A stretch of 64,000 nt of DNA from Alcaligenaceae bacterium. Its GTDB lineage: Bacteria > Pseudomonadota > Gammaproteobacteria > Burkholderiales > Burkholderiaceae_B. The notes under the pieces were generated by a model. That model saw only the letters and a list, made by a program, of their open reading frames with translations. It was not told the origin of the DNA and made no database searches. Each line of letters opens with the position of its first letter. Position 1 is the first letter of the stretch. The position numbers and the translations under genes were made by a program. The stretch lies in NCBI GenBank assembly GCA_012727555.1, contig JAAYGT010000033.1, positions 21,921-85,920 on the forward strand, written 5' to 3'. Positions 10,928 to 36,226 of this stretch are shown piece by piece.

Positions 10928-10988
10928 TCAGATTTCCTTGTAAAAGACGACAGGGCAGGAAACCTGCCCACTGTGGTCGATAGGGTAC

Positions 10989-13726: not shown

Positions 13727-13839
13727 ACACACCCCCCCCGATTTTCAATGACCCGCTCATGATTGCTCCTCATTTTTTGAACATGGAATGCGCGCAGTCT
13801 AGCGAAGCAACTTGATCTGGAACAAAAAAAACTTCAAGA

Positions 13840-13856
13840 TGTGCAAGGAGTGCACA
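13840..13856. promoter_or_regulatory. MhpR-type operator candidate TGTGCAAGGAGTGCACA
   Basis: Lies in the mhpA/mhpR divergent region. GTGCA half-sites have the same spacing as the E. coli MhpR site as I recall it (GGTGCACCTGGTGCACA). 12 of 17 positions are identical, and both half-sites are conserved. Confidence 0.45.
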
Positions 13857-13882
13857 GCGTTGATTTAAAAGTGAAAGGCCCA

Positions 13883-14710: not shown

Positions 14711-14723
14711 ATGTGGCAAGACA

Positions 14724-14743
14724 CGGCGGCATGCGAGCCGCCG
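14724..14743. terminator. Short GC hairpin between convergent mhpR and mhpC
   Basis: CGGCGGC-atgcga-GCCGCCG, a 7-bp stem. There is no clear T-run on either strand, so this is a weak call. Confidence 0.3.
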
Positions 14744-14748
14744 GAAGA

Positions 14749-15609
14749 TCAGTGCGTGAAAAAGTCGAGCGTCAGGCGGTTGAACGCCTCGGCATGCTCC
14801 CACTGAGCCCAGTGACCGCACTTGTTGAAAATGTGCATTTGTGCGTTGGGCAGGTTGGCCAACGCACGCAAACCGACATCAAGCGGCACAAAACGGTCGT
14901 TGCGACCCCAGATGATCAGTGTTTCCGCCTGGATTTCATCCATACGGTAACCGTAGTCGGTGAACTGCTTGGGAAATGCCTGCAAACTTCGGACAAAATT
15001 CTGCAGATGCTCGGGGCGGGCAAGAATATTGCTCAGCCGCTGCTCGTACAAATCTTCAGAGAGGCTGCTGGTGTCAAAAACGAAAACCTCCATCATGCGC
15101 TTGAGATTTTCGATGGTGGGATTGCGATACAACTGACCGATCAGCTTGATGCCTTCGGCCGGCATGGGGGTGAACAGACTGGGCCCGCCTGTGCCGCCGC
15201 CCATCAGTATCAGCTTGCCGACACGACCGGGGTTGGCCAACGCGAACGCCGTAGTGCTGTGGGCCCCCATGGAATTGCCAATGATGTGGGCCTTGTTGAT
15301 ATTGAGCGTATCCATGAGCTGAAGCAGGCAGCGCGCATTCAGTTCGGAACGGGATTCTGCGCAGAGAATGGAATCACTTTTGCTCCAGCCCAGGCAATCC
15401 ATGAGAATGACGCGGAAACCGGCGCTGGCAAGCGGCTCGATATTGCGATGAAAGTTGGCCCAGCCACTAGCGCCAGGCCCTGACCCGTGCAACATGACGA
15501 CGACATCGGTACCCGTCAGGGTGTCGTTGTAATGAAGCCGGTACGCTTTGCCACCTTCCTGGATCGTGATGAAATGACTTGTAGATTCTTCGGTAATGCC
15601 TGACGACAT
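14749..15609 (-). CDS. mhpC: 2-hydroxy-6-ketonona-2,4-dienedioate hydrolase (alpha/beta hydrolase)
   Basis: [42 protein letters not shown] and the GNSMGAH nucleophile elbow match MhpC. ATG 15609 with a strong GGGGGA RBS is preferred to ATG 15630. Confidence 0.85.
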
Positions 15610-15735
15610 GAAATTCCCCCTGGTTTGCATTCAAAACGGTGAAAATAACAGACATTGTGCCTTTTTCGGGTTGCGAACGTAAACCAGACATTCAATTGGC
15701 CCCGGCCGCCGACGACCTCCGGAGACCCCAGGCGG

Positions 15736-16284
15736 TTAGTCACGTGCCGTGAATTCTTCAGCCCGTGCAACCAGTTTGTCGACCATCGCGGCCAGCTGCT
15801 GCAGCTCTTCTTCGGTGAACTGTTCAAGCAGGAAAGCGGCCTGCTGCTCGGAATGAGGCGCAATTTCACGAAAGATCTGTTGACCGGATTCGGTCAGCCA
15901 GAGCAAGGCACGCCGATGATTTTCGGGATCGCGCTCATCGCGCACACGGCCTGCTGTACGCAGGCCGGTAACGGCACGGCTGATGTTCATGGGATGCAGG
16001 CCGGTCAGGGCGGCGATGTCCTGGGCCGCGATACCGGGGCGGTTGGCCAGGACCACCATGGTGCGCCATTCCGTGAGCGTAAGGGCGTGCTGCTTGGCAA
16101 ACTTGCCAAAAAATGGCCGCGTCAACAGGTTGGTGAGCTTGAGCAAACGAAAACCCACCATTTCAGGCGTCAGCGGCGGGCGCCGGGCCGTAGTGGTTTG
16201 TATGCTGCCTGGCACTGTCGTTACAGCCGACGATTGGGTTCGTGTTGACACGCGCTTACGCCCTGAGGAATGGGATGAAGTCAT
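15736..16284 (-). CDS. MarR family transcriptional regulator
   Basis: Winged HTH LTLTEWRTMVVLANRPGIAAQDIAALTGLHPMNISRAVTGLRTAGRVRDERDPENHRR. The start is uncertain (ATG 16284 or GTG 16335). Confidence 0.75.
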   Translation of the reverse strand: MTSSHSSGRKRVSTRTQSSAVTTVPGSIQTTTARRPPLTPEMVGFRLLKLTNLLTRPFFGKFAKQHALTLTEWRTMVVLANRPGIAAQDIAALTGLHPMNISRAVTGLRTAGRVRDERDPENHRRALLWLTESGQQIFREIAPHSEQQAAFLLEQFTEEELQQLAAMVDKLVARAEEFTARD

Positions 16285-16389: not shown

Positions 16390-16419
16390 ATAACAAAAGT
16401 TATCGATAATAATTGTTAT
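16390..16419. promoter_or_regulatory. Nested 30-bp palindrome ATAACAA-aag-TTATCGATAA-taa-TTGTTAT
   Basis: Perfect 10-bp palindrome TTATCGATAA (16400-16409) concentric with the ATAACAA/TTGTTAT arms. It sits in the MarR/ABC divergent promoter region and is a candidate MarR operator. Confidence 0.4.
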
Positions 16420-16477: not shown

Positions 16478-17368
16478 ATGCTTAATGCGTTCACGAAAAC
16501 ACGTTTGCTGGGGCAGGCCGTTCTGGCAGTATCCGCCTTCCTGGTGGCGGGCCCGATGGCACCCGCGCACGCCAGCTCGGCCCCCTTGTACAACGAACTG
16601 CCGGAAACTATCAAGAAAGCCGGCAAAATACACGTTGCAGCCGACAAACTTCCACCCTACCGCATTTCATCGGAAGATGGCCGCAAGGTGGAAGGCCTGG
16701 AAGTGGAACTGATCCAGGCACTGGAAAAACAACTGGGTGTTCCCTTCGAAACGTCGATTGTAGCCAATGGCCCTGCTATTTTCACCGGCATTGATACCGG
16801 TCGCTACGACATTTCATTCGGCCCTGCTCTGGCAACCGCTGAACGCGAAAAACGCTACGACATCATTCCCTGGCTGCTGAGCAAACCCGCCTTTGTACTT
16901 CCCGCGCAACACGGCTTGAAAACGAAATCGCTCATGGACCTCTGCGGGCGCCGCATTTCGGTCATGACAGGTTCAGCAGCCATTCGCGAAATCGAAATCA
17001 TGGACGGTCTGTGCGAAAAAGCAGGGCAGAAAAAGGTGCAGCAGGTCGTCATGCCTGATCAAAACGCCACGCTGCTGGCCGCACAATCAGGCCGCGCCGA
17101 TGCCTTCTCGATGCAATATGCAGCCGCTCTTTACCTGCTGAAAACCCGTCCGGGTGAATACACTGTCCAGACAGACGAAAGCAACTCGCTGACCACGCTG
17201 CGCCTTGGCATGATCCTGAAAAGCGGCTCGGCACTTTCGCCCGTCATGCAGAAAGCCATGCAAAACCTGCTCGACAACGGCGAGTACAAACGTATTCTGC
17301 AGAACTGGGGTCTGGATCCGGCATCCATCGATACCATCCAGCTGAATCCGAACTCCCAGAAACGCTGA
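16478..17368 (+). CDS. Polar amino-acid ABC transporter substrate-binding protein (family 3)
   Basis: Signal peptide MLNAFTKTRLLGQAVLAVSAFLVAGPMAPAHA and a family-3 SBP layout. ATG 16478 with a GGAG RBS is preferred to TTG 16439. Confidence 0.85.
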   Translation: MLNAFTKTRLLGQAVLAVSAFLVAGPMAPAHASSAPLYNELPETIKKAGKIHVAADKLPPYRISSEDGRKVEGLEVELIQALEKQLGVPFETSIVANGPAIFTGIDTGRYDISFGPALATAEREKRYDIIPWLLSKPAFVLPAQHGLKTKSLMDLCGRRISVMTGSAAIREIEIMDGLCEKAGQKKVQQVVMPDQNATLLAAQSGRADAFSMQYAAALYLLKTRPGEYTVQTDESNSLTTLRLGMILKSGSALSPVMQKAMQNLLDNGEYKRILQNWGLDPASIDTIQLNPNSQKR

Positions 17369-17381
17369 CCGAACCCGCATC

Positions 17382-18299
17382 ATGTCCAGTATGCCCTTAC
17401 CCTCACCCCTTACGGCCCCGGCAACACCGCTCTGTGCCGACGATGTCTCCCGGGCCCGCTACCCTGTCAGTCCGGCGCGGCGCGCAGCCAGTATCGCGCT
17501 GATCCTGGTGGCTGCATGGCTGGCCTGGTTTCTGGTCAGCAATCCCCGTTTCGAATGGCCTGTCGTCTGGAAATATCTCTTCGCCCCTGCCGTACTCGAA
17601 GGCCTGGGTGTCACCCTGGCACTGACCGTCATCGGTATGGTGGGTGGCATTATTATGGGTACCATTGCGGCCCTGCTGCTCATGAGCGACTACAAGCCGG
17701 GTCGCTGGGCTGCCAATACCTACCTGTGGGCCTTTCGGGCAACGCCACTGATGATCCAGTTGCTGTTCTGGTACAACCTGGCCTACCTTTTGCCCACCAT
17801 TTCCATTGGGCTGCCCTTCGGTGACCCCTGGATCGAATGGCGCACCATTGAATTGATCAGTCCGTTCACGGCTGCCGTACTGGGCCTGAGCCTGGCCGAA
17901 GGTGCCTATATGGCCGAGATCATGCGTGCCGGATTGCTCTCGGTGGATCAACGCCAGCACGATGCCGCCAAAGCCATCGGCATGAGCCCACGCCAGGCCT
18001 TCTTTCGCATTATCGTGCCCCAGGCCATGCGCTTCATCATCCCGCCAACGGGCAATCAGGTGATCAGCATGGCCAAAGCCACCGCCCTGGTCTCGGTCAT
18101 TGCCATGAACGACCTGCTGTTTGCGGTACAGGCCATCTACAACCGCACCTATGAAATCGTTCCGCTGCTGATGGTCGCCGTATTCTGGTATCTGGTTGTC
18201 ATCACCTGCCTGTACGCTGTGCAATCCCGTCTGGAAAAACACTATTCCAGAGGCCATCAACGTACCGCACCGGCACCTGCCGAAGCAGCGACTGCCTGA
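17382..18299 (+). CDS. Amino-acid ABC transporter permease (His/Glu/Gln/Arg/opine family)
   Basis: 305 aa with an EAA-like loop (AAKAIGMSPRQAFFRIIVPQAMRFIIPPTGNQ). It carries an unusual N-terminal extension of about 50 aa. Confidence 0.85.
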   Translation: MSSMPLPSPLTAPATPLCADDVSRARYPVSPARRAASIALILVAAWLAWFLVSNPRFEWPVVWKYLFAPAVLEGLGVTLALTVIGMVGGIIMGTIAALLLMSDYKPGRWAANTYLWAFRATPLMIQLLFWYNLAYLLPTISIGLPFGDPWIEWRTIELISPFTAAVLGLSLAEGAYMAEIMRAGLLSVDQRQHDAAKAIGMSPRQAFFRIIVPQAMRFIIPPTGNQVISMAKATALVSVIAMNDLLFAVQAIYNRTYEIVPLLMVAVFWYLVVITCLYAVQSRLEKHYSRGHQRTAPAPAEAATA

Positions 18300-18312
18300 G
18301 GAGCTCACGAAC

Positions 18313-19101
18313 ATGTCCGAATTATCTCCGCCCGGTTCAAAACGCAAAATACTCCGGGCTGAAAACGTGACCAAACGCTATGGCCGTTATGTTGCGCTGA
18401 ATGAAGTCAGCCTTGATGTTCACGAAGGTGAAGTCGTTGCCATCATCGGGCCATCAGGATCAGGAAAATCCACCCTGATCCGCTGCATGCACCAACTCGA
18501 ATCCATCGAAGGCGGCGCCATTTACCTGAACGACGAATTGCTGGGCTTTCGTCGTCAGGGCAACCAACTGCTTGCCCTGAATGCCAAGGCGGTGGCACGC
18601 CAGCGTCGTGAACTGGGCATGGTGTTCCAGCAGTTTGTGCTCTTTCCGCACATGACCGTCGCAGAGAACATCATGGAAGGCCCCGTCCATGTGCTGGGAG
18701 ACAGCGCCGCCGATGCCCGCAAACTGGCCGAACACCTGCTCGACCGGGTAGGCCTGGCCCAGAAAATGGATGCCTACCCGCCCCAGTTATCCGGTGGGCA
18801 ACAACAGCGCGTTGCGATTGCGCGGGCCCTGGCCATGCGCCCCAAGGTGCTGTTGTTCGATGAACCCACCAGCGCACTTGATCCCGAACTGGTCGGCGAA
18901 GTGCTGAACGTGGTCACTGACCTGGCCAAGGCCGGCAAAACGATGGTGGTGGTTACCCACGAAATCGGCTTTGCCCGCGAAGCGGCCCACCGCGTGGTGT
19001 TCATGGAACATGGTCGTATTGTCGAAGAAGGCGAGGCACGCAGCACGCTGGCCAACCCCCGCACGGAAAGACTGCGCACGTTCCTTTCGCGGGTCATGTG
19101 A
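18313..19101 (+). CDS. Amino-acid ABC transporter ATP-binding protein
   Basis: Walker A GPSGSGKST, signature LSGGQQQRVAIARAL, Walker B LLFDEPTSALD. ATG 18313 with a GAGGAG RBS. Confidence 0.9.
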   Translation: MSELSPPGSKRKILRAENVTKRYGRYVALNEVSLDVHEGEVVAIIGPSGSGKSTLIRCMHQLESIEGGAIYLNDELLGFRRQGNQLLALNAKAVARQRRELGMVFQQFVLFPHMTVAENIMEGPVHVLGDSAADARKLAEHLLDRVGLAQKMDAYPPQLSGGQQQRVAIARALAMRPKVLLFDEPTSALDPELVGEVLNVVTDLAKAGKTMVVVTHEIGFAREAAHRVVFMEHGRIVEEGEARSTLANPRTERLRTFLSRVM

Positions 19102-19154
19102 GCTGTTTTTTTTATTTTCTCAATAACAAAAGATACTGAATGGATACCTGATTC

Positions 19155-20525
19155 ATGGCACGAAAAATCAAATATTTGTCACCGACCGGTGTACTTGGCG
19201 TGGGGTTCTCCGAAGATCACTTCATGGCCGCACTCAGTCCGGAACTGGCCTTCATCGGCTGCGATGCAGGCTCCACCGACGGTGGGCCTGCCAACCTGGG
19301 CGGCAATAAACCCTTTTTCTCGCGCGGGGCCATCAAACGCGACCTGCGCATACTGATCAAGGGTGCACGCACGCTGGACATCCCGCTACTGGTGGGCTCC
19401 TGCGGGGGCAGCGGCGGCAACTGGAATCTGAACTGGGTGCGTGAAATCGTGCTGGAAATTGCCGCCGAAGAAAACCTGCACTTCAAAACAGCCGTGATCG
19501 AGTCGGAGCCCGACCGGGAGCTGCTGTTGAAAAAATACCGGGAAGGCAAGTTCCGTGCCCTGGACCCGGCACCGGAAATCACTGAAGACACACTGCGCGA
19601 CACCGATCACATTGTGGCCATGATGGGTGCCGAAGCCTATCAGGAAGCCTTGGCCAATGGCGCACAGGTGGTGCTGGCAGGCCGCTCGACCGATGCCGCG
19701 ATTTTTGCGGCCATTCCAGTGGCTCAAGGCTTTCCGGCGGGTCTGTGCTGGCATGCCGCCAAGATCATGGAGTGTGGCGGGGCAGCCGTCGTGACCATGG
19801 ACAAGCCCGAGGGCATGCTCTGCACCATCACCGATGACTACTTTGAGCTTGAGCCCGTCAGCCCGACCCAGCGTTGCTCCCCACTGAGCGTGGCCGCCCA
19901 CGCACTGTACGAAACAGGCGACCCCTACATGATGCGCGAACCAGGCGGTGTCATGGACCTGACCCACGCCCGGTATGAGCAGTCCGGGGAGCGCACTGTA
20001 CGGGTCTCCGGCAGCGCATTTCATCCCGAACCCTACACCGTGAAACTGGAAGGCGCCAAGCAGATCGGCTACCGGGCCATGGTACTGGGTGGCGTGCGTG
20101 ATCCGGTGATTCTCGAACAATTCGACAGCTGGTTCGGCGGCTTGCAGGGGTCTATTCGCGACAACATCGATGCCGTGTACGGCCAGTCGATGGCCGGTAA
20201 ATACCGCATCGACTTCAAACTTTATGGCCACAGCGGCGTACTGGGTACGCGCGAGCCGACACTGGGCCAGACACCGACCGAAGTGGGTGTACTGATGGTG
20301 AGCCTGGCCGACACCCAGGAAGTGGCCTACGCCATTGCCGGTCAGGCCGCACACATGGTGCTGCACCACGCCGTTCCGCAATGGCAAGGCCTTGTCTCGA
20401 ACCTTGCCTTCCCGATCGCTCCACATTTCTGGAGTCTGGGACCCGCTTACAAATTTGTACTCAATCATGTGGTGGAACTGGATCACCCGCTTGAGCTGCA
20501 CCGTATCCGCTACGAGGAGATCTGA
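19155..20525 (+). CDS. AtuA-like protein (DUF1446), function unknown
   Basis: 456 aa. The N-terminus IKYLSPTGVLGVGFSEDHF...FIGCDAGSTDGGP...LLVGSCGGSGG matches the acyclic-terpene-utilisation AtuA/DUF1446 pattern as I recognise it. Confidence 0.75.
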   Translation: MARKIKYLSPTGVLGVGFSEDHFMAALSPELAFIGCDAGSTDGGPANLGGNKPFFSRGAIKRDLRILIKGARTLDIPLLVGSCGGSGGNWNLNWVREIVLEIAAEENLHFKTAVIESEPDRELLLKKYREGKFRALDPAPEITEDTLRDTDHIVAMMGAEAYQEALANGAQVVLAGRSTDAAIFAAIPVAQGFPAGLCWHAAKIMECGGAAVVTMDKPEGMLCTITDDYFELEPVSPTQRCSPLSVAAHALYETGDPYMMREPGGVMDLTHARYEQSGERTVRVSGSAFHPEPYTVKLEGAKQIGYRAMVLGGVRDPVILEQFDSWFGGLQGSIRDNIDAVYGQSMAGKYRIDFKLYGHSGVLGTREPTLGQTPTEVGVLMVSLADTQEVAYAIAGQAAHMVLHHAVPQWQGLVSNLAFPIAPHFWSLGPAYKFVLNHVVELDHPLELHRIRYEEI

Positions 20526-20527
20526 TC

Positions 20528-20857
20528 ATGGCCCTGTTACGCGACCTCGCCAAACTCATTCGCACCAAGAACGCCGGCCCCTTCCAGCTGACAACGGACA
20601 TCATGTTTGCCGATGCGGCCACTTACCGGCATGTGGCAGACAGCGGTGTACTGTCCGTCGCCCTGATGGCCCGCACCTTCAAAGTACCCGAAACGTCGGT
20701 GCGGCTGTTTCACTACGACCCTGCCAATGCCATCAAAGTCACCATCCCGCGCCCGGTGACCTCGGGCAACCCCGAAGACACCGATCTGTTTGGCGGCCAG
20801 CAATTTGCCCCGCTTGTGAACATCGAAGTACCCGACCTGCCCTCCACCCAATCCTGA
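20528..20857 (+). CDS. DUF4387 domain protein (usual partner of DUF1446)
   Basis: 109 aa starting 2 nt after the AtuA stop. LIRTKNAGPFQLTTDIMF is typical of DUF4387 as I recognise it. Confidence 0.65.
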   Translation: MALLRDLAKLIRTKNAGPFQLTTDIMFADAATYRHVADSGVLSVALMARTFKVPETSVRLFHYDPANAIKVTIPRPVTSGNPEDTDLFGGQQFAPLVNIEVPDLPSTQS

Positions 20858-20872
20858 TCCAGGAGCTGAAAA

Positions 20873-21913
20873 ATGACCCAACCCATTCTGCGTGAACTTG
20901 TCACCGATGCAACGGCCTGGAAAGGCCCTGACCTGCAAAACGATACATCCTGGATCTATCACCTGGATGCGGCCGACCTGAACGAGCTGGAGCAGGCCTG
21001 TGCGACCGTCAAAGAGGCCGGCCTGAACTGGGGGAACTTCACGAAAGAGCAGTTCCCACTGCCCGGGCTGAGCGCCAAACTGGCCGACATTGACCAGCAG
21101 ATCCGTCACGGACGCGGCTTTGTAGTGATCCGTGGTCTGCCCGTCAAAAAATACGACAACGAACAGATCAGAACGCTTTACTGGGGCCTTGGCACCCACC
21201 TGGGCCAGATCATTTCCCACAACGTGAAAGGCGACACCATGGCCCCGGTCACCGACCTGGGACTCAAGGACAACGACCCCAACCGCCGCAACAACACAAC
21301 AAACCAGGTGCTGGATCCGCACACGGATCTGGCCGATGTGGTTGCCCTGCTGTGCATTGAAAAAGCCCGCGAGGGCGGCATGAGCAGCCTGGCCAGTTCC
21401 GTGGCCATCCACAACGAAATCGTGAAAAACCACCCGGAATACCTGGAGGTGCTTTACAACGGCTTTTATCACGACTACCGGGGGTATGGCCCCAACGGTG
21501 ATCCCAACGAAGTGACCGAAACACGCATCCCCGTCTTCGAGTTCAACAATGGCCGTGTGAACTGCGCATTTGCCAAGAAAATCATCGAAACCGGTGCCCG
21601 CAAGCACGGTGTGCCACTGACCGAACTGCAACAGGCGGCGATCGACTACGTGCATGAACTGGCCATTCGTGAAGACATGCGGATCGACATGCTGCTGGAG
21701 CCGGGCGATATCCAGATCATCAACAACTACATGACCCTGCACGCACGCACCAACTACATTGACCACGATGACGGACGCAAGCGTTACCTGTTGCGCATGT
21801 GGATCAACCTGCCCGACAGCGTTCAACTGTCGCCGGATTTTGCCAAATTCGTGCGCCGCGGTATTCCTGCCCAGGAAAAGGCCGTGAAAGAGACTGCGGG
21901 AGCGGCTGCATGA
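20873..21913 (+). CDS. TauD/TfdA family Fe(II)/2-oxoglutarate dioxygenase
   Basis: 346 aa. HxD (DPHTDLAD) and distal His (TLHART) with a RYLLRMWI tail, typical of the TauD/clavaminate-synthase-like fold. AGGAG RBS. Confidence 0.8.
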   Translation: MTQPILRELVTDATAWKGPDLQNDTSWIYHLDAADLNELEQACATVKEAGLNWGNFTKEQFPLPGLSAKLADIDQQIRHGRGFVVIRGLPVKKYDNEQIRTLYWGLGTHLGQIISHNVKGDTMAPVTDLGLKDNDPNRRNNTTNQVLDPHTDLADVVALLCIEKAREGGMSSLASSVAIHNEIVKNHPEYLEVLYNGFYHDYRGYGPNGDPNEVTETRIPVFEFNNGRVNCAFAKKIIETGARKHGVPLTELQQAAIDYVHELAIREDMRIDMLLEPGDIQIINNYMTLHARTNYIDHDDGRKRYLLRMWINLPDSVQLSPDFAKFVRRGIPAQEKAVKETAGAAA

Positions 21914-23319
21914 ATGCCCCGGAAACCCTCGTGACCATGCCGGCAGTCACTGACACACTGGCCGCCTTCGCAGCCGGGCTGCGCTTTGAGGATCTGCCCG
22001 CTGACGTCGTTGAGCGCACCAAAATGCTGGTACTGGACCTGTCCGGCATTATCATCCGCTCGCAGGATTTCGATTCCACACTCAGCATGAAACAGGCACT
22101 GCATTGCCTGCAGGGTAACCGTGGCTCACTGCGCGTGATGGGCAGCAACGAACACTGGACCCCGCAGGCAGCAGCGCACCTGGCCGGCGCGGCAGCGCAC
22201 AGCATGGATTTCGATGACACCCATGCACGTGCGCAACTGCACCCCGGGGCCCCCGTGATCGCAGCCGCCTTCGCAGCCGCCCAATTGGCCGGCTGCAGCA
22301 CCCGGGCCCTGCTGACCGGCATTGTGGCGGGGTACGAAGTGATGATTCGTGCCGCCCTGGGCGCAGGTGCCCGCGCACACGCCGAGCGCGGTTTTCACCC
22401 GACCGCCACGGTGGGCGTGTTCGGGGCCGCCGCCGCGTGCGGCAACATTCTTGGACTTGATGCCACACAAATGGCGCACGCCTTCGGTTCGGCCCTGAGC
22501 CAGTCTGCAGGCACAGGACAATTTGCAGTCAACGGGGCCTGGACAAAACGCTTTCACGTTGGCTATGCCGCATCCAGTGGCCTGACCAGTGCCGTATTCG
22601 CCAGCCAGGGTTACACCGGCGCCACACAGGCCCTTGAAGGCCGGGAAGGTTTCTTCAACGTGTACTCACCCAGGCCGGAACCCGAACTGGCCGTACAAGG
22701 CCTGGGCCAACGCTGGGAAATCATGGAATCCGGCATCAAACCCTACCCCTGCTGCCGCGGCATTCATGCACCGCTCGATGCCCTGACCAGCTTGCAGCAA
22801 CAACACCCCTTCACGGCGGCCGATGTCGCAGCCGTACGTGTCGGTATGGCACGTCGTAGTGTGTTTGTGGTGGGTGAACCCCAGGAACGCCGCCGCAAAC
22901 CACGCAATGTGGTGGACTGCCAGTTCTCGACCCATCTGTGCATGGCCATTGCCCTGAAACACCGCCGCATGGGCTGGGATGACTACGAACCCGCACTGCT
23001 AGACCCGGACATCTTCAAACTGATGGAACGCATTGATGTCTTTGAAGATGCCGAATGCGAAGCCAACTTCCCCACAGCATTTTCTGCGGTCGTGGAAGTG
23101 ACGCTGAACTCGGGTGAAACACTGCGTGCCTTCCAGTACGCCCCCCGTGGCGAACCCGATGACATGCCCACACAGGACGCCATGCAGCAGAAATTCACCC
23201 TGCTGGCGCAACCCGTGCTGGGTGCCGCTGCGGCACAGGGGCTCTACCAGACGCTCATGCAACTGGATGCCGACCTGCCTGTGGATAAACTCTTTGATCA
23301 CTGCGCGCACATCGCCTGA
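21910..23319 (+). CDS. MmgE/PrpD family protein (second copy)
   Basis: About 469 aa from ATG 21910, which overlaps the TauD stop (ATGA). It has the same family blocks as the first copy (HSMDFDDTH, LHPGAPVIAAA, GFHPTATVGVFGAAAA). The longer ORF-track start at 21799 lies inside the TauD gene. Confidence 0.85.
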   Translation: MNAPETLVTMPAVTDTLAAFAAGLRFEDLPADVVERTKMLVLDLSGIIIRSQDFDSTLSMKQALHCLQGNRGSLRVMGSNEHWTPQAAAHLAGAAAHSMDFDDTHARAQLHPGAPVIAAAFAAAQLAGCSTRALLTGIVAGYEVMIRAALGAGARAHAERGFHPTATVGVFGAAAACGNILGLDATQMAHAFGSALSQSAGTGQFAVNGAWTKRFHVGYAASSGLTSAVFASQGYTGATQALEGREGFFNVYSPRPEPELAVQGLGQRWEIMESGIKPYPCCRGIHAPLDALTSLQQQHPFTAADVAAVRVGMARRSVFVVGEPQERRRKPRNVVDCQFSTHLCMAIALKHRRMGWDDYEPALLDPDIFKLMERIDVFEDAECEANFPTAFSAVVEVTLNSGETLRAFQYAPRGEPDDMPTQDAMQQKFTLLAQPVLGAAAAQGLYQTLMQLDADLPVDKLFDHCAHIA

Positions 23320-23341
23320 TGTGCAAAGGACCCGGCTCACC

Positions 23342-24088
23342 ATGACACAAGCCACACACCCACACACCGAACAGGAACTTCGCGTACAGCTGGCTGCCTG
23401 CTACCGCATCTTCGACATGCTGCGCTGGACCGAAATGATCTACAACCACATCACGCTGCGGGTACCTGGTCCGGAAAAACATTTTCTGATCAATCCGTTC
23501 GGACTGCTCTACAACGAGGTCACCGCCTCGAAACTGGTCAAGATCGACATTGACGGAAACGTGATTCAGGACAACGGTTACCCGGTCAATCCGGCAGGCT
23601 TCACCCTGCATTCGGCCATCCACAAACATGTGCCGGACGCGCACTGCATCATGCACACCCACACCACCGCGGGGTGTGCCGTTGCAAGCGCCGATTGCGG
23701 GCTGTCACCCGACAATTTCTATTCTGCCCAGTTGTACGACCGCGTGGCCTACCATGCGTTTGAAGGCATCACACTGCATGCCGAAGAAGGACCGCGGCTG
23801 ATCAAGTCCATCGACAACAAACCCGCCGTCATTCTGCGCAACCATGGCCTGCTCAGCTGGGGCCCCACACTACCCATGGCCTTCGCCACGCTCTGGACGC
23901 TCCAGCGTGCCTGTGAAATTCAGGTGATGGGCGCCGCACTGGGACCGACACGCGCCATTTCCAAAGCCATCCAGCAACAATGCAGTGCCCAGGCCCTGCA
24001 GTTCGATCCCCGGCACGGCGCAGGCGAAGACGTATTTGCTGCGCTGGTGCGCCAGGTCGAGCGGCTTGACCCGTCCTACAAAGACTGA
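23342..24088 (+). CDS. Class II aldolase/adducin family protein
   Basis: 248 aa. Blocks NHITLRVPG, HSAIHKHVPDAHCIMHTHTTAG and LRNHGLLSWG are typical of the class II aldolase/adducin head fold. Family members act as aldolases, decarboxylases or dehydratases. Confidence 0.8.
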   Translation: MTQATHPHTEQELRVQLAACYRIFDMLRWTEMIYNHITLRVPGPEKHFLINPFGLLYNEVTASKLVKIDIDGNVIQDNGYPVNPAGFTLHSAIHKHVPDAHCIMHTHTTAGCAVASADCGLSPDNFYSAQLYDRVAYHAFEGITLHAEEGPRLIKSIDNKPAVILRNHGLLSWGPTLPMAFATLWTLQRACEIQVMGAALGPTRAISKAIQQQCSAQALQFDPRHGAGEDVFAALVRQVERLDPSYKD

Positions 24089-24099
24089 AAAGGTACACC

Positions 24100-25098
24100 A
24101 TGAAAGTATGTATCTACGGCCTGGGTGCGATCGGCGGCTTGCTGGCCGCGCGGCTGGCCGCACGCGGCGAAGTACAGACCAGTGCGGTGGCACGCGGAGC
24201 AACACTGCACACGCTGCAGCAACAGGGCCTGACCCTCATTGAAGGCCCGCCTGAGCAGTCAAAAGAGCAGCGCCATCGCCTGCACGCCAGCGACAACCCG
24301 ACCGACCTGGGTGTTCAGGATGTCGTCATTCTTTCGGTCAAAGCCACCGCTTTACCCGACGTGGCGAAGCACATCGCCCCCCTGCTGGGGCCCGACACCA
24401 CCTTGCTGTCCATGATGAACGGGGTTCCCTGGTGGTTCTTCCATGGTTTGCCCAACGCCCCCGAACAGATCCAGCTGACCAGTCTGGATCCTGACGGCAG
24501 GCTTGTGGCGGCACTGCCCTGCGACCGCGTGGTGGGTACCGTCACCCACCTGTCGGCGGCCAACCTGGGGCCCGGTATGGTGCGCCATGTAGCCGGTAAC
24601 CGCATCATCATCGGTGAACCTGGCGGCGGCACGGCCACCCCGCGGGCCCAGGCCATCCTGCAGGCACTGCAATCCGCCGGCTTCGACGTTGAACCCTCGG
24701 AACAAATCCAGAAAGACATCTGGTACAAACTGTGGGGCAACATGACTGTCAACCCGATTTCCGGACTGACCGGTGCAACAGGCGACAGAATTCTGGATGA
24801 TGCCTACGTGCGCCAGTTCATGAGCCGCTGCATGCACGAAGCTGCCGAAATCGGCCGTCGTATCGGCATAACGATTGACCAGGATCCGGAAGATCGTCAC
24901 CAGGTCACCCGTCAGCTGGGCGCATTTCGCACCTCCATGCTTCAGGACGTGCAGGCCGGCAAGGCCATCGAACTGGACGCCCTGGTGGGCGCTGTACTGG
25001 ACATTGCCCGCCAGGTACACGTTGCCGCACCGAATATTGAAACCCTCATGGGCCTGAGCCGGCTGCACGCCCGCACCCTGGGACTTTACCCGGCCTGA
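24100..25098 (+). CDS. Ketopantoate reductase (PanE/ApbA) family 2-oxoacid reductase
   Basis: 332 aa. N-terminal MKVCIYGLGAIGGLLAARLA Rossmann motif and KPR-family layout. Confidence 0.8.
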   Translation: MKVCIYGLGAIGGLLAARLAARGEVQTSAVARGATLHTLQQQGLTLIEGPPEQSKEQRHRLHASDNPTDLGVQDVVILSVKATALPDVAKHIAPLLGPDTTLLSMMNGVPWWFFHGLPNAPEQIQLTSLDPDGRLVAALPCDRVVGTVTHLSAANLGPGMVRHVAGNRIIIGEPGGGTATPRAQAILQALQSAGFDVEPSEQIQKDIWYKLWGNMTVNPISGLTGATGDRILDDAYVRQFMSRCMHEAAEIGRRIGITIDQDPEDRHQVTRQLGAFRTSMLQDVQAGKAIELDALVGAVLDIARQVHVAAPNIETLMGLSRLHARTLGLYPA

Positions 25099-25126
25099 GC
25101 AACGGTACAAGGAAAACGACAGCGTT

Positions 25127-25196
25127 AAGTGAACGCTGTCAGGTAAACGCTGTGAAGTGAAAGCTGTTAAGTGAACGCTGTCAGGTGAACGCTGTC
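25127..25196. repeat. Tandem repeat, 5 x 14 bp (consensus ARGTGAACGCTGTC)
   Basis: Read directly: aagtgaacgctgtc / aggtaaacgctgtg / aagtgaaagctgtt / aagtgaacgctgtc / aggtgaacgctgtc. A degenerate sixth unit follows. Upstream gacagcgtt (25118-25126) is the inverted complement of aacgctgtc. Confidence 0.9.
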
Positions 25197-25274
25197 AACG
25201 CAGCTCGTTCAAACCTTACCTGCCAACACAGACCTGGGGCTCTTGGAAGCAAGCATTACCCTGAGGTTCTGACA

Positions 25275-25608: not shown

Positions 25609-26637
25609 TCAGCCTTGCTGCTTGGCACGCACCAGCGAAAGAGCGGTGTCTTCGATCATGTCTTCCTGGCCACCGACCATCCCGCGACGGCCCATTTCAA
25701 CCAAAATTTCACGGGCAGGAATGCCGAACTTCTGTTCAGCCCGTTTCGCAAACAACAGGAACGAACCATACACACCGGCGTAGCCCAATGTCAGGGCATC
25801 GCGGTCAACACGGATCGGGAAATCCATGATGGGTACGACCAGATCTTCGGCGACGTCCTGGATCTTGAAAACATCCACCCCGGTCTCAATGCCCATCAGG
25901 TCGAGCACGGCAACCAGCACTTCCATGGGCGTATTACCGGCACCGGCACCCAGACCGGCAGCAGCCGCATCGATACGGTCGGCACCGACTTCAATAGCGG
26001 CAATACTGTTGGCCACACCCATGGCCAGGTTGTGGTGGCCGTGGAAACCCAGTTCTGTTTCGGGCTTGAGGGCATCGCGCACAGCCTGCAGACGCTCTTT
26101 CACTGTACCAGGCAGCAAGTGGCCGGCGGAATCCGTGATGTAGATACAGTTCGCACCGTAGCTTTCCATCAGGCGTGCCTGCTTGACCAGACCTTCGGGG
26201 CTGTTCATGTGGCTCATCATCAGAAAACCGACCGTATCCATACCCAGTTTGCGACCCAGGGTAATGTGCTGTTCCGACACATCGGCTTCAGTACAGTGGG
26301 TGGCCACACGAATGGTGGTCACGCCCAGATCGTGGGCCATTTTCAGGTGATCCACAGTGCCAATGCCGGGCAACAACAAGGCCGAGACCTTGGCCTGCTT
26401 CAACTGGGGAATCACGGCGCTCAGGTATTCTTCGTCGCTGTGCGCAGGAAAGCCGTAGTTCACGGACGCACCGCCCAGACCATCACCGTGAGTGACTTCG
26501 ATCAGGGGAATGCCGGCCTCATCGAGCCCGCGGGCGATGGAAACCATCTGGTCCAGCGTGATCTGGTGACGCTTGGGGTGCATGCCATCGCGCAGGCTCA
26601 TGTCATGCAGAACGATTTTCTTGGTAGTTGCAGTCAT
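25609..26637 (-). CDS. mhpE: 4-hydroxy-2-oxovalerate aldolase
   Basis: 342 aa. [19 protein letters not shown] and [13 protein letters not shown] match DmpG/MhpE-type aldolases. AAGGAGA RBS. Confidence 0.9.
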
Positions 26638-26651
26638 GGTGTTCTCCTTGC

Positions 26652-27548
26652 TCAGGCGGTTTCGGCCGCGATCATCTGTTCGGCAAACATTTCGGCGGTA
26701 CGTGCTGCGGCAGCTGTCATGATGTCAAGGTTGCCCGAATACTTGGGCAGGTAGTCGCCCAGGCCTTCCACTTCCAGATAGATGGAAACGCGGTTGCCAT
26801 CGAACACCGGACCGTTGACCAGACGATAGCCCGGCACATACTTCTGCACTTCCTTGATCATGGCGTGCACCGATTCGGTGATACGGGCCTGATCGGGTTC
26901 ATCATCGGTCAGGCAGTGCACGGTATCACGCATGATCAGCGGCGGTTCGGCCGGGTTCAGAATGATGATGGCCTTGCCTTCGCGAGCGCCACCCACACGT
27001 TCGACCGCGCCGGCGGTGGTGCGGGTGAACTCATCAATGTTCTTGCGTGTACCGGGACCGGCCGATTTGGAAGACACCGTAGCCACGATTTCAGCGTATT
27101 TAACCGACTGCACACGCGAAACGGCATGCACCATGGGAATGGTGGCCTGACCGCCGCACGTCACCATGTTCACGTTTTTCTCGCCACGACCCAGGTGTTC
27201 CTGCAGGTTGACCGGAGGCACACAGAACGGGCCAATGGCTGCCGGCGTGAGATCGATCATCATCACGCCCAGTGCGGTGAGCTTGTCGGAGTTGTCTTTG
27301 TGCACATAGGCACTGGTTGCATCGAATGCAATCTGGATGTTGTCTGCCTTGACATGCGGCACCAGGGCATCGACCCCTTCTGCCGTCGTCTTGATACCCA
27401 GTGCCGCAGCGCGCTTCAAGCCATCGGACTCAGGATCGACCCCGACCATCCAGACAGGTTCCAGTACAGGGCTGCGCATGAGCTTGGCCAGAAGGTCCGT
27501 GCCGATGTTGCCCGGGCCAATAATGGCGCAACGAAGTTTTTTCGCCAT
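26652..27548 (-). CDS. mhpF: Acetaldehyde dehydrogenase (acetylating)
   Basis: 298 aa. [19 protein letters not shown] and [12 protein letters not shown] match DmpF/MhpF. Located immediately upstream of mhpE. Confidence 0.9.
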
Positions 27549-28894: not shown

Positions 28895-28899
28895 GATGG

Positions 28900-29376: not shown

Positions 29377-29425
29377 GGGGGTAGCGCCTGATCGGGCAAT
29401 GGCACGTGCAATGGCCTGGGAAATT

Positions 29426-29459: not shown

Positions 29460-29473
29460 GATGGCGTTAATGC

Positions 29474-32149: not shown

Positions 32150-32207
32150 GGGTGGGTTGACACGAAGGGTAAGAAAACACCGCCAACGCGATTGGCCTTA
32201 CTTTCAG

Positions 32208-36221: not shown

Positions 36222-36226
36222 TTATC

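What the first reader, a model, noticed from the sequence alone, without database searches (positions are those of the whole stretch)
19155..25098. Orphan AtuA(DUF1446)/DUF4387 - TauD - PrpD - class II aldolase - KPR-like operon fed by an amino-acid-type ABC importer
Six same-strand genes are packed with gaps of 2, 15, -4 (ATGA overlap), 22 and 11 nt. They lie directly downstream (53-nt gap) of a polar amino-acid ABC importer (16478-19101) and a divergent MarR gene. To my knowledge AtuA/DUF1446 and its small partner DUF4387 have no assigned biochemistry. Here they are linked to an Fe(II)/2OG dioxygenase, an MmgE/PrpD-family enzyme (dehydratase/decarboxylase/isomerase chemistry), an aldolase/decarboxylase-fold protein and a 2-oxoacid reductase. 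That is a full complement for a hydroxylate - dehydrate/isomerise - cleave - reduce route acting on an imported amino-acid-like or opine-like carboxylate. I cannot map it to any named pathway. This is my best candidate for an undescribed system in the window.
Basis: partly seen in the sequence, partly recalled or inferred. Interest (0 to 1): 0.72.

Follow-up and report, generated by a model that had tools for sequence, protein, structure and literature searches.

The report
Conserved orphan operon around a citramalate-lyase-like enzyme
The six genes are real and form a conserved, MarR-controlled breakdown operon for a still unknown organic acid, but its "function-unknown" AtuA/DUF4387 pair now has a solved relative (citramalate lyase CmlAB), so it is most likely the carbon-carbon cleaving step.

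Summary
Six + strand genes (AtuA-like, DUF4387, TauD, MmgE/PrpD, class II aldolase, KPR) lie at the stated coordinates with the stated gaps, behind a polar-amino-acid-type ABC importer and a divergent MarR gene.

The cluster keeps the same order in 22 non-redundant loci: seven Burkholderiales genera, one alphaproteobacterium and two actinobacteria. I found no paper describing it.

Three points need correcting:
- AtuA/DUF4387 is no longer without biochemistry. PDB 9ERQ/9EVF is "citramalate lyase CmlA/CmlB" (E 1.5e-101 and 8.8e-22; model TM 0.89). The window pair is a distant paralogue, not an orthologue.
- The transporter type is not conserved. It is a PAAT ABC, an aromatic-acid-like MFS plus porin, or an SsuA-like ABC. 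The aldolase gene is dispensable.
- A TAAC-N4-GTTA operator lies before both the importer and AtuA, from Betaproteobacteria to Streptomyces. mhp genes (3-hydroxyphenylpropionate meta-cleavage) adjoin the module in several lineages and follow it on the same strand, without a second operator, in Streptomyces.

Best reading: an oxygenase, (de)hydratase, lyase and 2-oxoacid-reductase route for a substituted C4-dicarboxylate, possibly aryl-substituted. The substrate is unknown.

The parts
15736..16284 (-). MarR-family regulator (182 aa from the ATG at 16284), divergent from the importer
   Evidence: Pfam MarR/MarR_2. The best NCBIfam hit is HpaR, below its cut-off. Conserved next to the cluster in nearly all versions. 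The start codon was read.
16390..16419 (.). Operator-like palindrome ATAACAAAAGTTATCGATAATAATTGTTAT (core TAAC-N4-GTTA) in the MarR/importer intergenic region
   Evidence: Unique in the window; 0.01 matches expected by chance. Related palindromes lie in the same intergenic region in Advenella, Pigmentiphaga, Acidovorax, Hydrogenophaga and Streptomyces.
16478..17368 (+). Periplasmic solute-binding protein, family 3 (PAAT type)
   Evidence: Pfam SBP_bac_3 at 2.8e-17. PDB relatives are all weak, E 1e-13 or worse. It is the least conserved gene of the unit, 44-78% identity.
17382..18299 (+). ABC permease (PAAT type)
   Evidence: Pfam BPD_transp_1. NCBIfam hits to cystine, ectoine and glutamine permeases are all below their cut-offs.
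18313..19101 (+). ABC ATPase (262 aa)
   Evidence: Pfam ABC_tran. The ATG at 18313 follows a GAGGAG motif.
19120..19139 (.). Second operator-like site TCAATAACAAAAGATACTGA, 15 nt upstream of the AtuA start and after a T-run
   Evidence: The exact 11-mer AATAACAAAAG occurs only here and in the first operator. An alignment of 12 sites, from Betaproteobacteria to Streptomyces and Propionibacteriaceae, has the invariant core T..TAAC....G.TA.
19155..20525 (+). AtuA/DUF1446-family large subunit, CmlA-like (putative C-C lyase)
   Evidence: PDB 9ERQ_A/9EVF_A citramalate lyase subunit A: E 1.5e-101 over the full length. AlphaFold model pLDDT 89.8; Foldseek TM 0.89, 39% identity, and it is the only significant PDB fold match. 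The family-wide invariant polar residues are present.
20528..20857 (+). DUF4387 small subunit, CmlB-like
   Evidence: PDB 9ERQ_B citramalate lyase subunit B, E 8.8e-22. A DUF4387 gene adjoins AtuA in 76 of 79 genome loci; the other three are cut by contig ends.
20873..21913 (+). Fe(II)/2-oxoglutarate dioxygenase of the TauD family
   Evidence: Pfam TauD, 120.5 bits. Best PDB hits are FrbJ (5EQN, 2.8e-53) and 7N7V. H150-x-D152...H290 are present. It is 69-88% identical across all versions, actinobacteria included.
21910..23319 (+). MmgE/PrpD-family protein (putative (de)hydratase or isomerase of a dicarboxylate)
   Evidence: Pfam N and C domains. It is not a PrpD equivalog: 60 bits against a cut-off of 950. 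Nearest solved relatives are IDS epimerase (1.8e-41) and B. subtilis IRG1-like.
23342..24088 (+). Class II aldolase/adducin-fold protein (accessory; probably a decarboxylase or oxidative decarboxylase)
   Evidence: Pfam Aldolase_II and NCBIfam PRK07044. PDB hits: 3OCR (8.7e-58), adducin, TqaM, NovR. Absent from L015, L084 and L094.
24100..25098 (+). Ketopantoate-reductase-family 2-oxoacid reductase
   Evidence: Pfam ApbA and ApbA_C; NCBIfam PRK06522.1-4, 402 bits. PDB 3GHY at 2.6e-94. KPR motifs are present.
25117..25198 (.). Hairpin and five copies of a 14-nt tandem repeat directly after the KPR stop codon (possible end of the transcription unit)
10142..15630 (-). Flanking mhp genes (context, with their own IclR regulator): MhpD 10142-10927, MhpB 10989-11933, MhpA 11930-13732, MhpR 13841-14710 (+ strand), BphD/MhpC-like hydrolase 14749-15630
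   Evidence: NCBIfam: MhpB 570 bits against 467; MhpD 396 against 350; MhpA 604 against 546; IclR regulator 408 against 269. The same neighbours occur in other Advenella, and MhpA/MhpB follow the module in Streptomyces.
25609..27548 (-). Flanking MhpE (4-hydroxy-2-oxovalerate aldolase, 25609-26637) and MhpF (acetaldehyde dehydrogenase, 26652-27548), convergent with the operon
   Evidence: NCBIfam TIGR03217 at 560 bits and TIGR03215 at 478 bits.

Best explanation
This is a MarR-repressed catabolic unit: an importer plus a six-gene enzyme operon. It breaks down a substituted C4-dicarboxylate, that is, a substituted succinate, fumarate or malate, without CoA esters.

Proposed steps (all inferred):
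1. The TauD-type Fe(II)/2-oxoglutarate dioxygenase oxygenates the succinate backbone.
2. The MmgE/PrpD-family protein dehydrates and rehydrates it, placing the hydroxyl where the lyase needs it. A class I fumarase (mesaconase) does this job for CmlAB.
3. The AtuA/DUF4387 heteromer, a paralogue of citramalate lyase CmlAB, cleaves the C-C bond. The products are a 2-oxoacid and acetate.
4. The KPR-family reductase converts the 2-oxoacid to a D-2-hydroxyacid. Where present, the class II aldolase-fold protein decarboxylates or oxidatively decarboxylates it.

The substituent is probably larger than methyl and may be aryl-alkyl. In that case the product would feed the neighbouring Mhp meta-cleavage pathway.

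Shown here: gene content, conservation, shared operator, homology to CmlAB, neighbourhood of mhp genes.
Inferred: every chemical step, their order, and the substrate.
For: 1. Lyase assignment.
- Full-length homology of both subunits to CmlA/CmlB.
- Model TM 0.89 to 9EVF.
- 16 family-wide invariant polar residues are retained.

2. Malate-type chemistry recurs around AtuA/DUF4387 pairs.
- Class I fumarase: Salmonella mal cluster L103, Klebsiella L106, L113.
- PrpD-like proteins: the window clade, Micrococcaceae and several MAGs.
- Iso_dh with a TRAP transporter: L112.
- Citrate-synthase family and TctC: L104.

3. Related clusters replace functions, not just families.
- TauD by an NtaA/DmoA flavin monooxygenase plus flavin reductase.
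- PrpD by a fumarase.
- KPR by 2-Hacid_dh or Iso_dh.
- The aldolase fold by a TPP enzyme plus aldehyde dehydrogenase, or by Amidohydro_2.

4. One unit.
- 22 loci share the gene order with short or overlapping gaps.
- The operator TAAC-N4-GTTA lies before the importer, before AtuA and before a porin.

5. Aromatic hint.
- mhp genes adjoin the module in Advenella, Streptomyces (same strand, no second operator), Propionibacteriaceae and C. lacunae.
- The MFS is aromatic-acid-symporter-like.
- The MarR is HpaR-like.
- A phenol 2-monooxygenase lies beside the Pseudarthrobacter version.
Against: - The substrate is not identified.
- The window AtuA lies in a clade far from the characterised CmlA. Identity is 39%, and the mal/glutamate mutase context is absent, so the lyase activity is only inferred.
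- 9EVF is an ADP-pyruvate complex. A nucleotide may play a role that I cannot explain.
- The reaction type of the PrpD-like protein is open. It is closest to IDS epimerase, keeps His99 and the Cys, but lacks Tyr145. It also lacks His277 of cis-aconitate decarboxylase.
- The nearest characterised TauD relatives act on phosphonate or amino-acid-like and betaine compounds.
- In two metagenome contigs (L085, matching the Hydrogenophaga locus L012, and L086, matching the Pigmentiphaga locus L004) the unit sits among housekeeping genes, with no mhp genes within 10 kb.
- In the window no operator lies near the mhp genes.
- KPR, the aldolase fold and TauD also occur together without AtuA or PrpD on an Acinetobacter plasmid. 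The steps may therefore be ordered differently.
Confidence: 0.5

Rival explanations
1. An imported amino-acid-like or opine-like carboxylate is hydroxylated by TauD and processed by PrpD. The class II aldolase cleaves it and KPR reduces the product. AtuA/DUF4387 has some other, unknown role.
For: - The window has a PAAT-type ABC importer.
- The weak NCBIfam hits of TauD are to amino-acid and betaine hydroxylases.
- The nearest solved PrpD relative is IDS epimerase, which acts on an N-substituted aspartate.
- A KPR, aldolase and TauD trio follows an amino-acid-type (HAAT) ABC on an Acinetobacter plasmid.
Against: - The importer type changes between versions: MFS plus porin, or SsuA-like ABC.
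- The aldolase gene is absent from three complete versions, whereas AtuA/DUF4387 is never absent.
- AtuA/DUF4387 has a solved lyase relative.
- There is no aminotransferase, deaminase or amino acid oxidase in the unit.
Confidence: 0.15
2. The substrate is a small branched C5-C6 dicarboxylate such as methylsuccinate, itaconate, mesaconate or citramalate. The AtuA/DUF4387 pair is a genuine citramalate lyase. The mhp neighbourhood is only a catabolic-island effect.
For: - Homology to CmlAB.
- An engineered methylsuccinate to mesaconate to citramalate to pyruvate plus acetate route uses the same logic.
- In two metagenome contigs (L085, L086) the unit stands alone among housekeeping genes.
Against: - Pyruvate and acetate need no KPR, decarboxylase, TPP enzyme or aldehyde dehydrogenase, yet such enzymes are conserved partners.
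- The window clade is far from the CmlA clade.
- In Streptomyces mhp genes continue on the same strand after KPR, with no second operator between them.
Confidence: 0.15
3. The substrate is a heteroatom-linked succinate adduct (S-, N- or O-succino compound). TauD hydroxylates the substituted carbon, which releases oxaloacetate. This would be analogous to the B. subtilis yxe/scm pathway for S-(2-succino)cysteine. The PrpD-like protein would be the counterpart of YxeQ.
For: - The yxe operon combines a PAAT ABC, an NtaA-type flavin monooxygenase (YxeK) and YxeQ of unknown function (PMC9706529).
- The Micrococcaceae versions carry an NtaA/DmoA monooxygenase in place of TauD.
- The PrpD-like protein is closest to IDS epimerase and B. 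subtilis IRG1-like.
- That YxeQ is a PrpD-family protein is from my memory and was not tested.
Against: - There is no acetyltransferase or deacetylase.
- This reading leaves no role for the always-present AtuA/DUF4387 lyase or for KPR.
- The epimerase Tyr145 is not conserved.
- The regulator is a MarR rather than a sulfur-limitation regulator.
Confidence: 0.1
4. These are two unrelated modules that merely lie side by side: AtuA/DUF4387 with or without PrpD, and TauD with the aldolase and KPR. They would serve different substrates.
For: - A MarR, aldolase and KPR mini-operon occurs in Caballeronia L111.
- A KPR, aldolase and TauD trio occurs in Acinetobacter L115.
- AtuA/DUF4387 occurs in many other contexts.
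Against: - The order is fixed and gaps are tight or overlapping, including the TauD/PrpD ATGA overlap, across 22 loci and two phyla.
- In the window the only operator-like site within the enzyme genes' surroundings lies upstream of AtuA; none lies between the six genes.
Confidence: 0.05

Closest known systems
Citramalate lyase CmlAB (AtuA-family plus DUF4387 subunits; PDB 9ERQ, 9EVF; enterobacterial methylaspartate pathway)
   Same: - Two adjacent genes of the same two families.
- Full-length homology (E 1.5e-101 and 8.8e-22).
- Predicted fold TM 0.89.
- Conserved invariant polar residues.
- A hydro-lyase partner that makes the hydroxy-dicarboxylate.
   Different: - Only 39% identity, on a separate deep clade.
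- No glutamate mutase, methylaspartase or class I fumarase nearby.
- The partners here are TauD, a PrpD-like protein, KPR and an aldolase-fold protein.
- The expected 2-oxoacid product is probably not pyruvate.
Pseudomonas AtuA of the acyclic terpene utilisation (atu) cluster, which gives the Pfam family its name
   Same: Same Pfam family, PF07287.
   Different: - The match to the Pfam model is weak (85.6 bits, partial).
- None of the other atu genes (carboxylase subunits, acyl-CoA dehydrogenase, hydratase) is present.
- What I know of the atu cluster is from memory.
2-Methylcitrate cycle and leucine-type alkylmalate chemistry (PrpD, isopropylmalate isomerase and dehydrogenase, lyases of the isocitrate lyase family)
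   Same: The logic is the same: a substituted hydroxy-dicarboxylate is dehydrated and rehydrated, then cleaved or oxidatively decarboxylated to a 2-oxoacid. A related cluster (L112) carries an Iso_dh-family enzyme.
   Different: - The PrpD-like protein fails the PrpD equivalog models.
- The lyase has a different fold.
- No CoA-dependent synthase is present.
- An oxygenase starts the route.
Glutarate hydroxylase route CsiD/LhgO (a 2-oxoglutarate dioxygenase followed by 2-hydroxyacid oxidation)
   Same: A 2-oxoglutarate-dependent dioxygenase acting on a dicarboxylate is paired with a 2-hydroxy/2-oxoacid oxidoreductase. This comparison is from memory.
   Different: The dioxygenase family differs (TauD, not CsiD), and the lyase and PrpD-like steps have no counterpart.
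B. subtilis yxe/scm operon for S-(2-succino)cysteine breakdown (PMC9706529)
   Same: A polar-amino-acid ABC importer, an oxygenase acting on a substituted succinate, and a protein of unknown function that I recall as PrpD-family (YxeQ).
   Different: There is no acetyltransferase or deacetylase. The oxygenase is TauD rather than a flavin enzyme in the window. The AtuA/DUF4387, KPR and aldolase-fold genes have no counterpart.
Mhp pathway for 3-(3-hydroxyphenyl)propionate and 3-hydroxycinnamate
   Same: True mhpA, mhpB, mhpD, mhpE, mhpF and mhpR flank the operon. MhpA/MhpB follow it in Streptomyces.
   Different: The six genes are not mhp genes. In the window they have a separate regulator and operator.

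Membership tests
CmlAB-type citramalate lyase | AtuA-family large subunit homologous over its full length to CmlA | tested here: met
   phmmer E 1.5e-101, residues 1-446 against 1-440. Foldseek TM 0.89, 39% identity to 9EVF_A.
CmlAB-type citramalate lyase | Adjacent DUF4387 small subunit homologous to CmlB | tested here: met
   E 8.8e-22 to 9ERQ_B; the gene starts 2 nt after AtuA.
CmlAB-type citramalate lyase | Orthology with the characterised enzyme (same clade) | tested here: not met
   In an NJ tree of 99 sequences, the mal-linked Salmonella CmlA type lies on a distant deep branch. Identity is 39.7%.
CmlAB-type citramalate lyase | Methylaspartate-pathway context (glutamate mutase, methylaspartase, mesaconase) | tested here: not met
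   Present in L103. Absent from the window and from all 22 orthologous loci.
CmlAB-type citramalate lyase | Cleavage of (S)-citramalate to pyruvate and acetate | not testable with these tools
   Needs an enzyme assay.
TauD/TfdA Fe(II)/2-oxoglutarate dioxygenases | Pfam domain above its cut-off and the His-x-Asp...His iron triad | tested here: met
   120.5 bits against 27. H150, D152 and H290 are present (by inspection).
Taurine dioxygenase, gamma-butyrobetaine hydroxylase, clavaminate synthase and other named TauD-family equivalogs | Score above the equivalog cut-off | tested here: not met
   The best score is 40 bits against cut-offs of 268-450.
2-Methylcitrate dehydratase PrpD | Score above the NCBIfam equivalog cut-off | tested here: not met
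   60.4 bits against 950, and 25 against 575. Only the Pfam family domains are met.
Iminodisuccinate epimerase | Catalytic pair His99 and Tyr145 (PMC7347537) | tested here: not met
   His99 aligns with H111, but Tyr145 aligns with A158.
cis-Aconitate decarboxylase (IRG1/CAD) | His103, His159, Lys207, Lys272 plus His277 and Tyr318 | tested here: not met
   H111, H163, K213 and K277 are present, but His277 aligns with C282. Tyr318 was not mapped.
Class II aldolase/adducin fold | Pfam and subfamily model, and the three-His metal site | tested here: met
   166 bits; PRK07044 at 345 bits against 207. H105, H107 and H168 are present.
Sugar-phosphate aldolases and epimerases (FucA, AraD, MtnB) | Equivalog score | tested here: not met
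   All scores are 53 bits or less against cut-offs of 137-400.
Ketopantoate reductase family | ApbA N and C domains, subfamily model, Lys/Asn/SMLQD motifs | tested here: met
   Whether it reduces ketopantoate or another 2-oxoacid cannot be told from sequence.
B. subtilis yxe/scm 2SC pathway | YxeK-type monooxygenase or 2SL lyase, N-acetyltransferase and deacetylase | tested here: not met
   None of these families occurs in the unit. The definition comes from PMC9706529.
MarR regulon (one regulatory unit) | The same operator before the importer and before the enzyme genes | tested here: met
   AATAACAAAAG occurs only at 16389 and 19122. The core is conserved in 12 aligned sites. Binding itself was not tested.

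The most novel reading that the evidence does not exclude
The operon encodes an undescribed, CoA-independent and oxygen-dependent route for aryl-substituted succinates or malates. Candidates are hydroxybenzyl- or benzyl-succinate made by anaerobes, or plant benzylmalates such as eucomic or piscidic acid analogues. These would be converted to an arylpyruvate or aryl-lactate plus acetate by a new substrate class of the CmlAB lyase fold. The aromatic product would then be handed to the Mhp meta-cleavage enzymes.
Probability: 0.2. Interest if true: 0.7.

Novelty: new variant of a known kind. Interest (0 to 1): 0.5.

Why it matters
PF07287/PF14330 pairs are very common: 534 relatives in one scan of species genomes, and more than 2,700 proteins at E of 1e-20 or better. 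As far as I could find, only one member has a function.

This clade offers a clean test case:
- a fixed set of partner enzymes;
- a dedicated regulator with a recognisable operator;
- a dedicated binding protein;
- cultured hosts, including Advenella faeciporci, A. mandrilli, Hydrogenophaga electricum and Cupriavidus lacunae.

Finding its substrate would assign a second reaction to a new lyase fold. It would also give a first function to one subgroup each of the PrpD, TauD, KPR and aldolase-fold families. It could reveal a CoA-free way of shortening substituted dicarboxylic acids, which interests pathway engineers. The CmlAB enzyme is already used for that purpose.

Tried and rejected
- DNA similarity to plasmids: only two short ABC-gene matches, no orthologous cluster. 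Protein-mode plasmid searches gave no orthologue: AtuA below 43% identity, TauD below 41%, PrpD at most 45%. They did supply the reference CmlAB locus and other contexts.
- Literature: DUF1446/DUF4387, AtuA with citramalate lyase, CmlA/CmlB, combined family names, and PDB codes 7N7V/5EQN. None described this cluster, and the primary CmlAB paper is not in the library.
- Metagenome scan with TauD: 13 loci and no new architecture.
- Phosphonate or sulfonate substrate. This was suggested by FrbJ, the weak Phosphonate-bd and SsuA-like hits, and an Xsc-like TPP enzyme. I rejected it as the main reading. All those hits are far below their cut-offs, no C-P or C-S enzyme is present, and (from memory) NitT/TauT-type ABC systems also carry aromatic dicarboxylates.
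- PrpD-like protein as an IDS-type epimerase: the Tyr145 base is missing.
- Operator near the mhp genes of the window: none found.
- PDB relatives of the binding protein: too distant to read a ligand.
- The A. vitis plasmid TauD next to LeuCD is part of an NRPS cluster and is not relevant.
- I could not name the substituent. Several specific candidates (tricarballylate, itatartarate, carnitine-like acids, 5-(3-hydroxyphenyl)valerate) fit some genes but not all.

Full report
**1. Observation**

The six + strand ORFs are where the finding puts them and belong to the families it names:
- AtuA family, 19155-20525
- DUF4387, 20528-20857
- TauD, 20873-21913
- MmgE/PrpD, 21910-23319
- class II aldolase fold, 23342-24088
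- ketopantoate-reductase family, 24100-25098

The gaps are 2, 15, -4, 22 and 11 nt. Upstream lie a PAAT-type ABC importer: binding protein from the ATG at 16478, permease 17382-18299, ATPase 18313-19101. A divergent MarR gene follows at 15736-16284. The iron triad of TauD, the three-His site of the aldolase fold and the KPR motifs are intact. A consensus scan finds no internal promoter or terminator signal above the shuffled expectation. A hairpin plus a 14-nt tandem repeat follows the KPR stop codon. The closest genome relatives are Advenella species, at 91-92% identity for AtuA.

**2. The AtuA/DUF4387 pair is no longer orphan**

- Against all PDB sequences, the large protein matches 9ERQ/9EVF chain A, "Citramalate lyase, subunit A (cmlA)", at E 1.5e-101 over its whole length.
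- The small protein matches chain B, "subunit B (cmlB)", at E 8.8e-22.
- An AlphaFold model (pLDDT 89.8) superposes on 9EVF_A with TM 0.89. That entry is the only significant fold match in the PDB, so the fold is otherwise unknown.
- 9EVF is titled "Citramalate lyase - ADP - pyruvate complex". A nucleotide is therefore bound. I cannot say what it does.
- A 2026 preprint uses this enzyme (Cml, cmlAB, from Raoultella planticola, a gift of I. [quoted passage not shown]
- An older paper had noted the DUF1446 gene downstream of methylaspartase in enterobacteria.
- I recovered that reference context on a Salmonella plasmid: glmS-glmL-glmE-mal-AtuA-DUF4387-gltP-glsA-class I fumarase-cobO.

**3. The window pair is a paralogue, not an orthologue, of CmlAB**

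I built a neighbour-joining tree of 99 AtuA sequences from the fetched loci. The window protein falls in a tight clade with Advenella, Pigmentiphaga, Hydrogenophaga, Acidovorax, Cupriavidus, Paraburkholderia, a Pseudodonghicola MAG, a Streptomyces and a Propionibacteriaceae MAG. The sister clade is Micrococcaceae. The mal-linked CmlA type is a distant deep branch (39.7% identity). Sixteen polar residues are invariant across the whole family and present in the window protein: D37, D42, D63, R177, D180, H200, K203, E206, C207, H249, Y252, E253, K297, E299, E376 and H404. The same catalytic machinery is therefore likely (inference).

**4. Conservation of the cluster**

- In 79 genome loci found with an AtuA profile, a DUF4387 gene adjoins AtuA in 76. 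The other three are cut by contig ends.
- Every locus of the window clade whose contig extends far enough has TauD and PrpD directly after DUF4387.
- There are 22 non-redundant loci, all in the same order and mostly with short or negative gaps.
- 15 reach KPR, and 12 of those have the aldolase-fold gene between PrpD and KPR.
- Three lack the aldolase-fold gene: Streptomyces L084, Propionibacteriaceae L015 and metagenome L094.
- TauD is the best-conserved protein, 69-88% identical even in actinobacteria.
- In two metagenome contigs (L085, which matches the Hydrogenophaga locus L012, and L086, which matches the Pigmentiphaga locus L004) the unit sits among housekeeping genes, so it is self-contained.

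**5. The transporter is not a defining part**

- The window type uses a PAAT ABC.
- Cupriavidus lacunae and Paraburkholderia solitsugae use an MFS plus a porin. The best family for the MFS is the aromatic acid/H+ symporters, followed by MhpT and PcaK, all below their cut-offs.
- The actinobacteria use an SsuA/TauA-like (NMT1) ABC.

The "amino-acid-type importer" therefore says little about the substrate.

**6. Regulation**

- The MarR/importer intergenic region holds the palindrome ATAACAAAAGTTATCGATAATAATTGTTAT (16390-16419), unique in the window.
- The exact 11-mer AATAACAAAAG occurs only twice in 64 kb: there, and 22 nt upstream of the AtuA start (19122-19132). Fewer than one match is expected by chance.
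- The site before AtuA is conserved in every version I looked at. Twelve aligned sites, from Betaproteobacteria to Streptomyces and Propionibacteriaceae, share the invariant core T..TAAC....G.TA.
- In C. lacunae the motif also precedes the porin gene. In Streptomyces it lies before the ABC genes and before AtuA, but not between KPR and the following genes.

This is in silico evidence for one MarR regulon comprising importer and enzymes.

**7. Link to the mhp pathway**

The genes flanking the operon in the window are true mhp genes by NCBIfam equivalog scores:
- MhpD, MhpB and MhpA
- the IclR regulator MhpR
- a BphD/MhpC-like hydrolase on the left
- MhpE and MhpF on the right

Other Advenella species have the same left flank. 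In Streptomyces a hydrolase, MhpA (592 bits against 546), MhpB (504 against 291), an MhpD-like hydratase (below its equivalog cut-offs) and a YdiJ-like FAD/Fe-S 2-hydroxyacid dehydrogenase follow KPR on the same strand. In the Propionibacteriaceae MAG, a GlcD-Fe-S protein, a CCG protein and MhpA (588 against 546) follow KPR. In C. lacunae, the lower-pathway genes lie just upstream. The Pseudarthrobacter version has a phenol 2-monooxygenase nearby. Several independent lineages make chance unlikely. However, the link is absent from four Hydrogenophaga loci, Pigmentiphaga and Paraburkholderia within 10 kb. In the window the mhp genes have their own regulator and no MarR-type operator.

**8. What related clusters say about the chemistry**

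AtuA/DUF4387 pairs recur with enzymes that act on malate-type acids:
- class I fumarases (L103, L106, L113)
- PrpD-like proteins (window clade, Micrococcaceae, several MAGs)
- an Iso_dh-family dehydrogenase with a TRAP transporter (L112, AtuA 65% identical)
- citrate-synthase-family proteins and TctC receptors (L104)

In the nearest relatives each function is kept while the family changes:

| Function in the window | Replacement elsewhere | Where |
|---|---|---|
| TauD | NtaA/DmoA flavin monooxygenase plus flavin reductase | Micrococcaceae |
| PrpD-like | two-subunit class I fumarase | L113 |
| KPR | 2-Hacid_dh or Iso_dh | L113, L112 |
| aldolase fold | TPP enzyme plus aldehyde dehydrogenase, or Amidohydro_2 | Micrococcaceae, L113 |

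This pattern is the main support for reading the operon as oxygenase, (de)hydratase, C-C lyase and 2-oxoacid processing. The presence of 2-oxoacid-processing enzymes argues that the lyase product is not simply pyruvate.

**9. Limits on each enzyme**

- The PrpD-like protein fails the PrpD equivalog models. It is closest to IDS epimerase and the B. subtilis IRG1-like protein. It keeps His99 (H111), the second His (H163), both Lys and the Cys shared with those two. The epimerase base Tyr145 aligns with A158, and His277 of cis-aconitate decarboxylase aligns with C282. Its reaction type stays open. The fumarase replacement favours a (de)hydratase.
- The nearest solved TauD relatives are FrbJ, a phosphonate hydroxylase, and 7N7V.
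- The aldolase-fold protein is nearest to 3OCR, adducin, TqaM and NovR. From memory, the characterised non-phosphate members of this fold are decarboxylases or oxidative decarboxylases.
- The aldolase-fold and KPR genes also form a MarR-linked mini-operon in Caballeronia (64% and 43% identity).
- A KPR, aldolase and TauD trio follows an ABC importer on an Acinetobacter plasmid. The order of steps may therefore differ from my scheme.

**10. Proposed mechanism and rivals**

Best reading (confidence about 0.5): a substituted succinate is oxygenated by TauD and isomerised through the unsaturated acid by the PrpD-like protein. AtuA/DUF4387 cleaves it to a 2-oxoacid plus acetate. KPR reduces the 2-oxoacid, and the aldolase-fold protein optionally decarboxylates it.

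A narrower guess (about 0.2-0.25) is that the substituent is aryl-alkyl and the product enters the Mhp pathway. One version accounts for every gene of the Streptomyces operon: arylpyruvate is reduced to a D-aryl-lactate; the Mhp enzymes degrade the ring to D-malate; a YdiJ-like dehydrogenase oxidises the D-malate. This is conjecture.

Rivals:
- a plain C5 dicarboxylate/citramalate route (0.15)
- a succino-adduct route like B. subtilis yxe (0.1)
- two unrelated modules (0.05)

**11. Novelty and verdict**

No paper in the library holds three of the five family names together, and no annotated plasmid carries an orthologous cluster. The parts are known enzyme families, and the key one now has a characterised relative. 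The combination, its operator and its link to mhp genes are undescribed as far as I could search. I file it as a new variant of a known kind, a catabolic operon built round a CmlAB-type lyase. The substrate is unknown but can be tested directly.

Noticed in passing
window 25127-25198: About five tandem copies of a 14-nt unit (AAGTGAACGCTGTC) directly after the KPR stop codon, overlapping a hairpin at 25117-25141.
   Followed up: partly
window 25307-25330 and 25402-25425: A perfect 24-nt inverted repeat (CCGTTGTTTCTGCCCTGACCGGGG) with a 71-nt spacer, in the non-coding stretch between KPR and mhpE. It could be a REP- or MITE-like element or a large hairpin.
   Followed up: partly
window 4694-8994: A second MmgE/PrpD paralogue (4694-6073, no NCBIfam match) followed by a TRAP transporter (DctP, DctQ, DctM). 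This is another orphan dicarboxylate-type unit.
   Followed up: no
window 10142-15630 and 25609-27548: The mhp pathway genes are split into two blocks by the MarR/ABC/enzyme unit. In other Advenella species mhpE and mhpF are not downstream of KPR, and the hydrolase at the mhpC position is only about 30% identical.
   Followed up: partly
window 27611-38060: A further catabolic island. It holds a TRAP transporter, a GlcD-like FAD oxidase (30719-32149), Rieske dioxygenase alpha and beta subunits (32296-34068; BenA/HcaE-like, below cut-offs), TctC, a Zn-dependent alcohol dehydrogenase, a reductase and an IclR regulator.
   Followed up: partly
window 44494-47644: A haem-oxygenase-like gene followed by a bacteriophytochrome (PAS_2-GAF-PHY) fused to a GGDEF domain.
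   Followed up: no
L081 14949-15943 (Paraburkholderia solitsugae): The KPR gene of the orthologous cluster is called as two ORFs (184 and 131 aa), so it is probably frameshifted or a pseudogene. A transposase and an IS240-type gene lie nearby.
   Followed up: no
L108, L104 and L088: AtuA/DUF4387 pairs of other clades sit next to hydantoinase/oxoprolinase A and B genes (ATP-dependent enzymes). This may bear on the ADP seen in the CmlAB crystal structure.
   Followed up: no
L115 6205-8975 (Acinetobacter sp. NCu2D-2 plasmid): A KPR, class II aldolase and TauD trio in one operon behind an OprD porin and a HAAT-type ABC importer. It is followed by FeaR, a GMC oxidoreductase, an aldehyde dehydrogenase and an aminomethyltransferase-family gene.
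   Followed up: partly
L091 (metagenome contig LFRM01192207.1): A 1.8-kb metagenome contig encodes DUF4387 and TauD 100% identical to the window proteins. The same or a very close strain was therefore sampled in that metagenome.
   Followed up: no
L013/L080 17524-17535 (Cupriavidus lacunae): The TAAC-N4-GTTA operator motif also lies between the MFS transporter gene and the porin gene, which suggests the porin belongs to the same regulon.
   Followed up: partly
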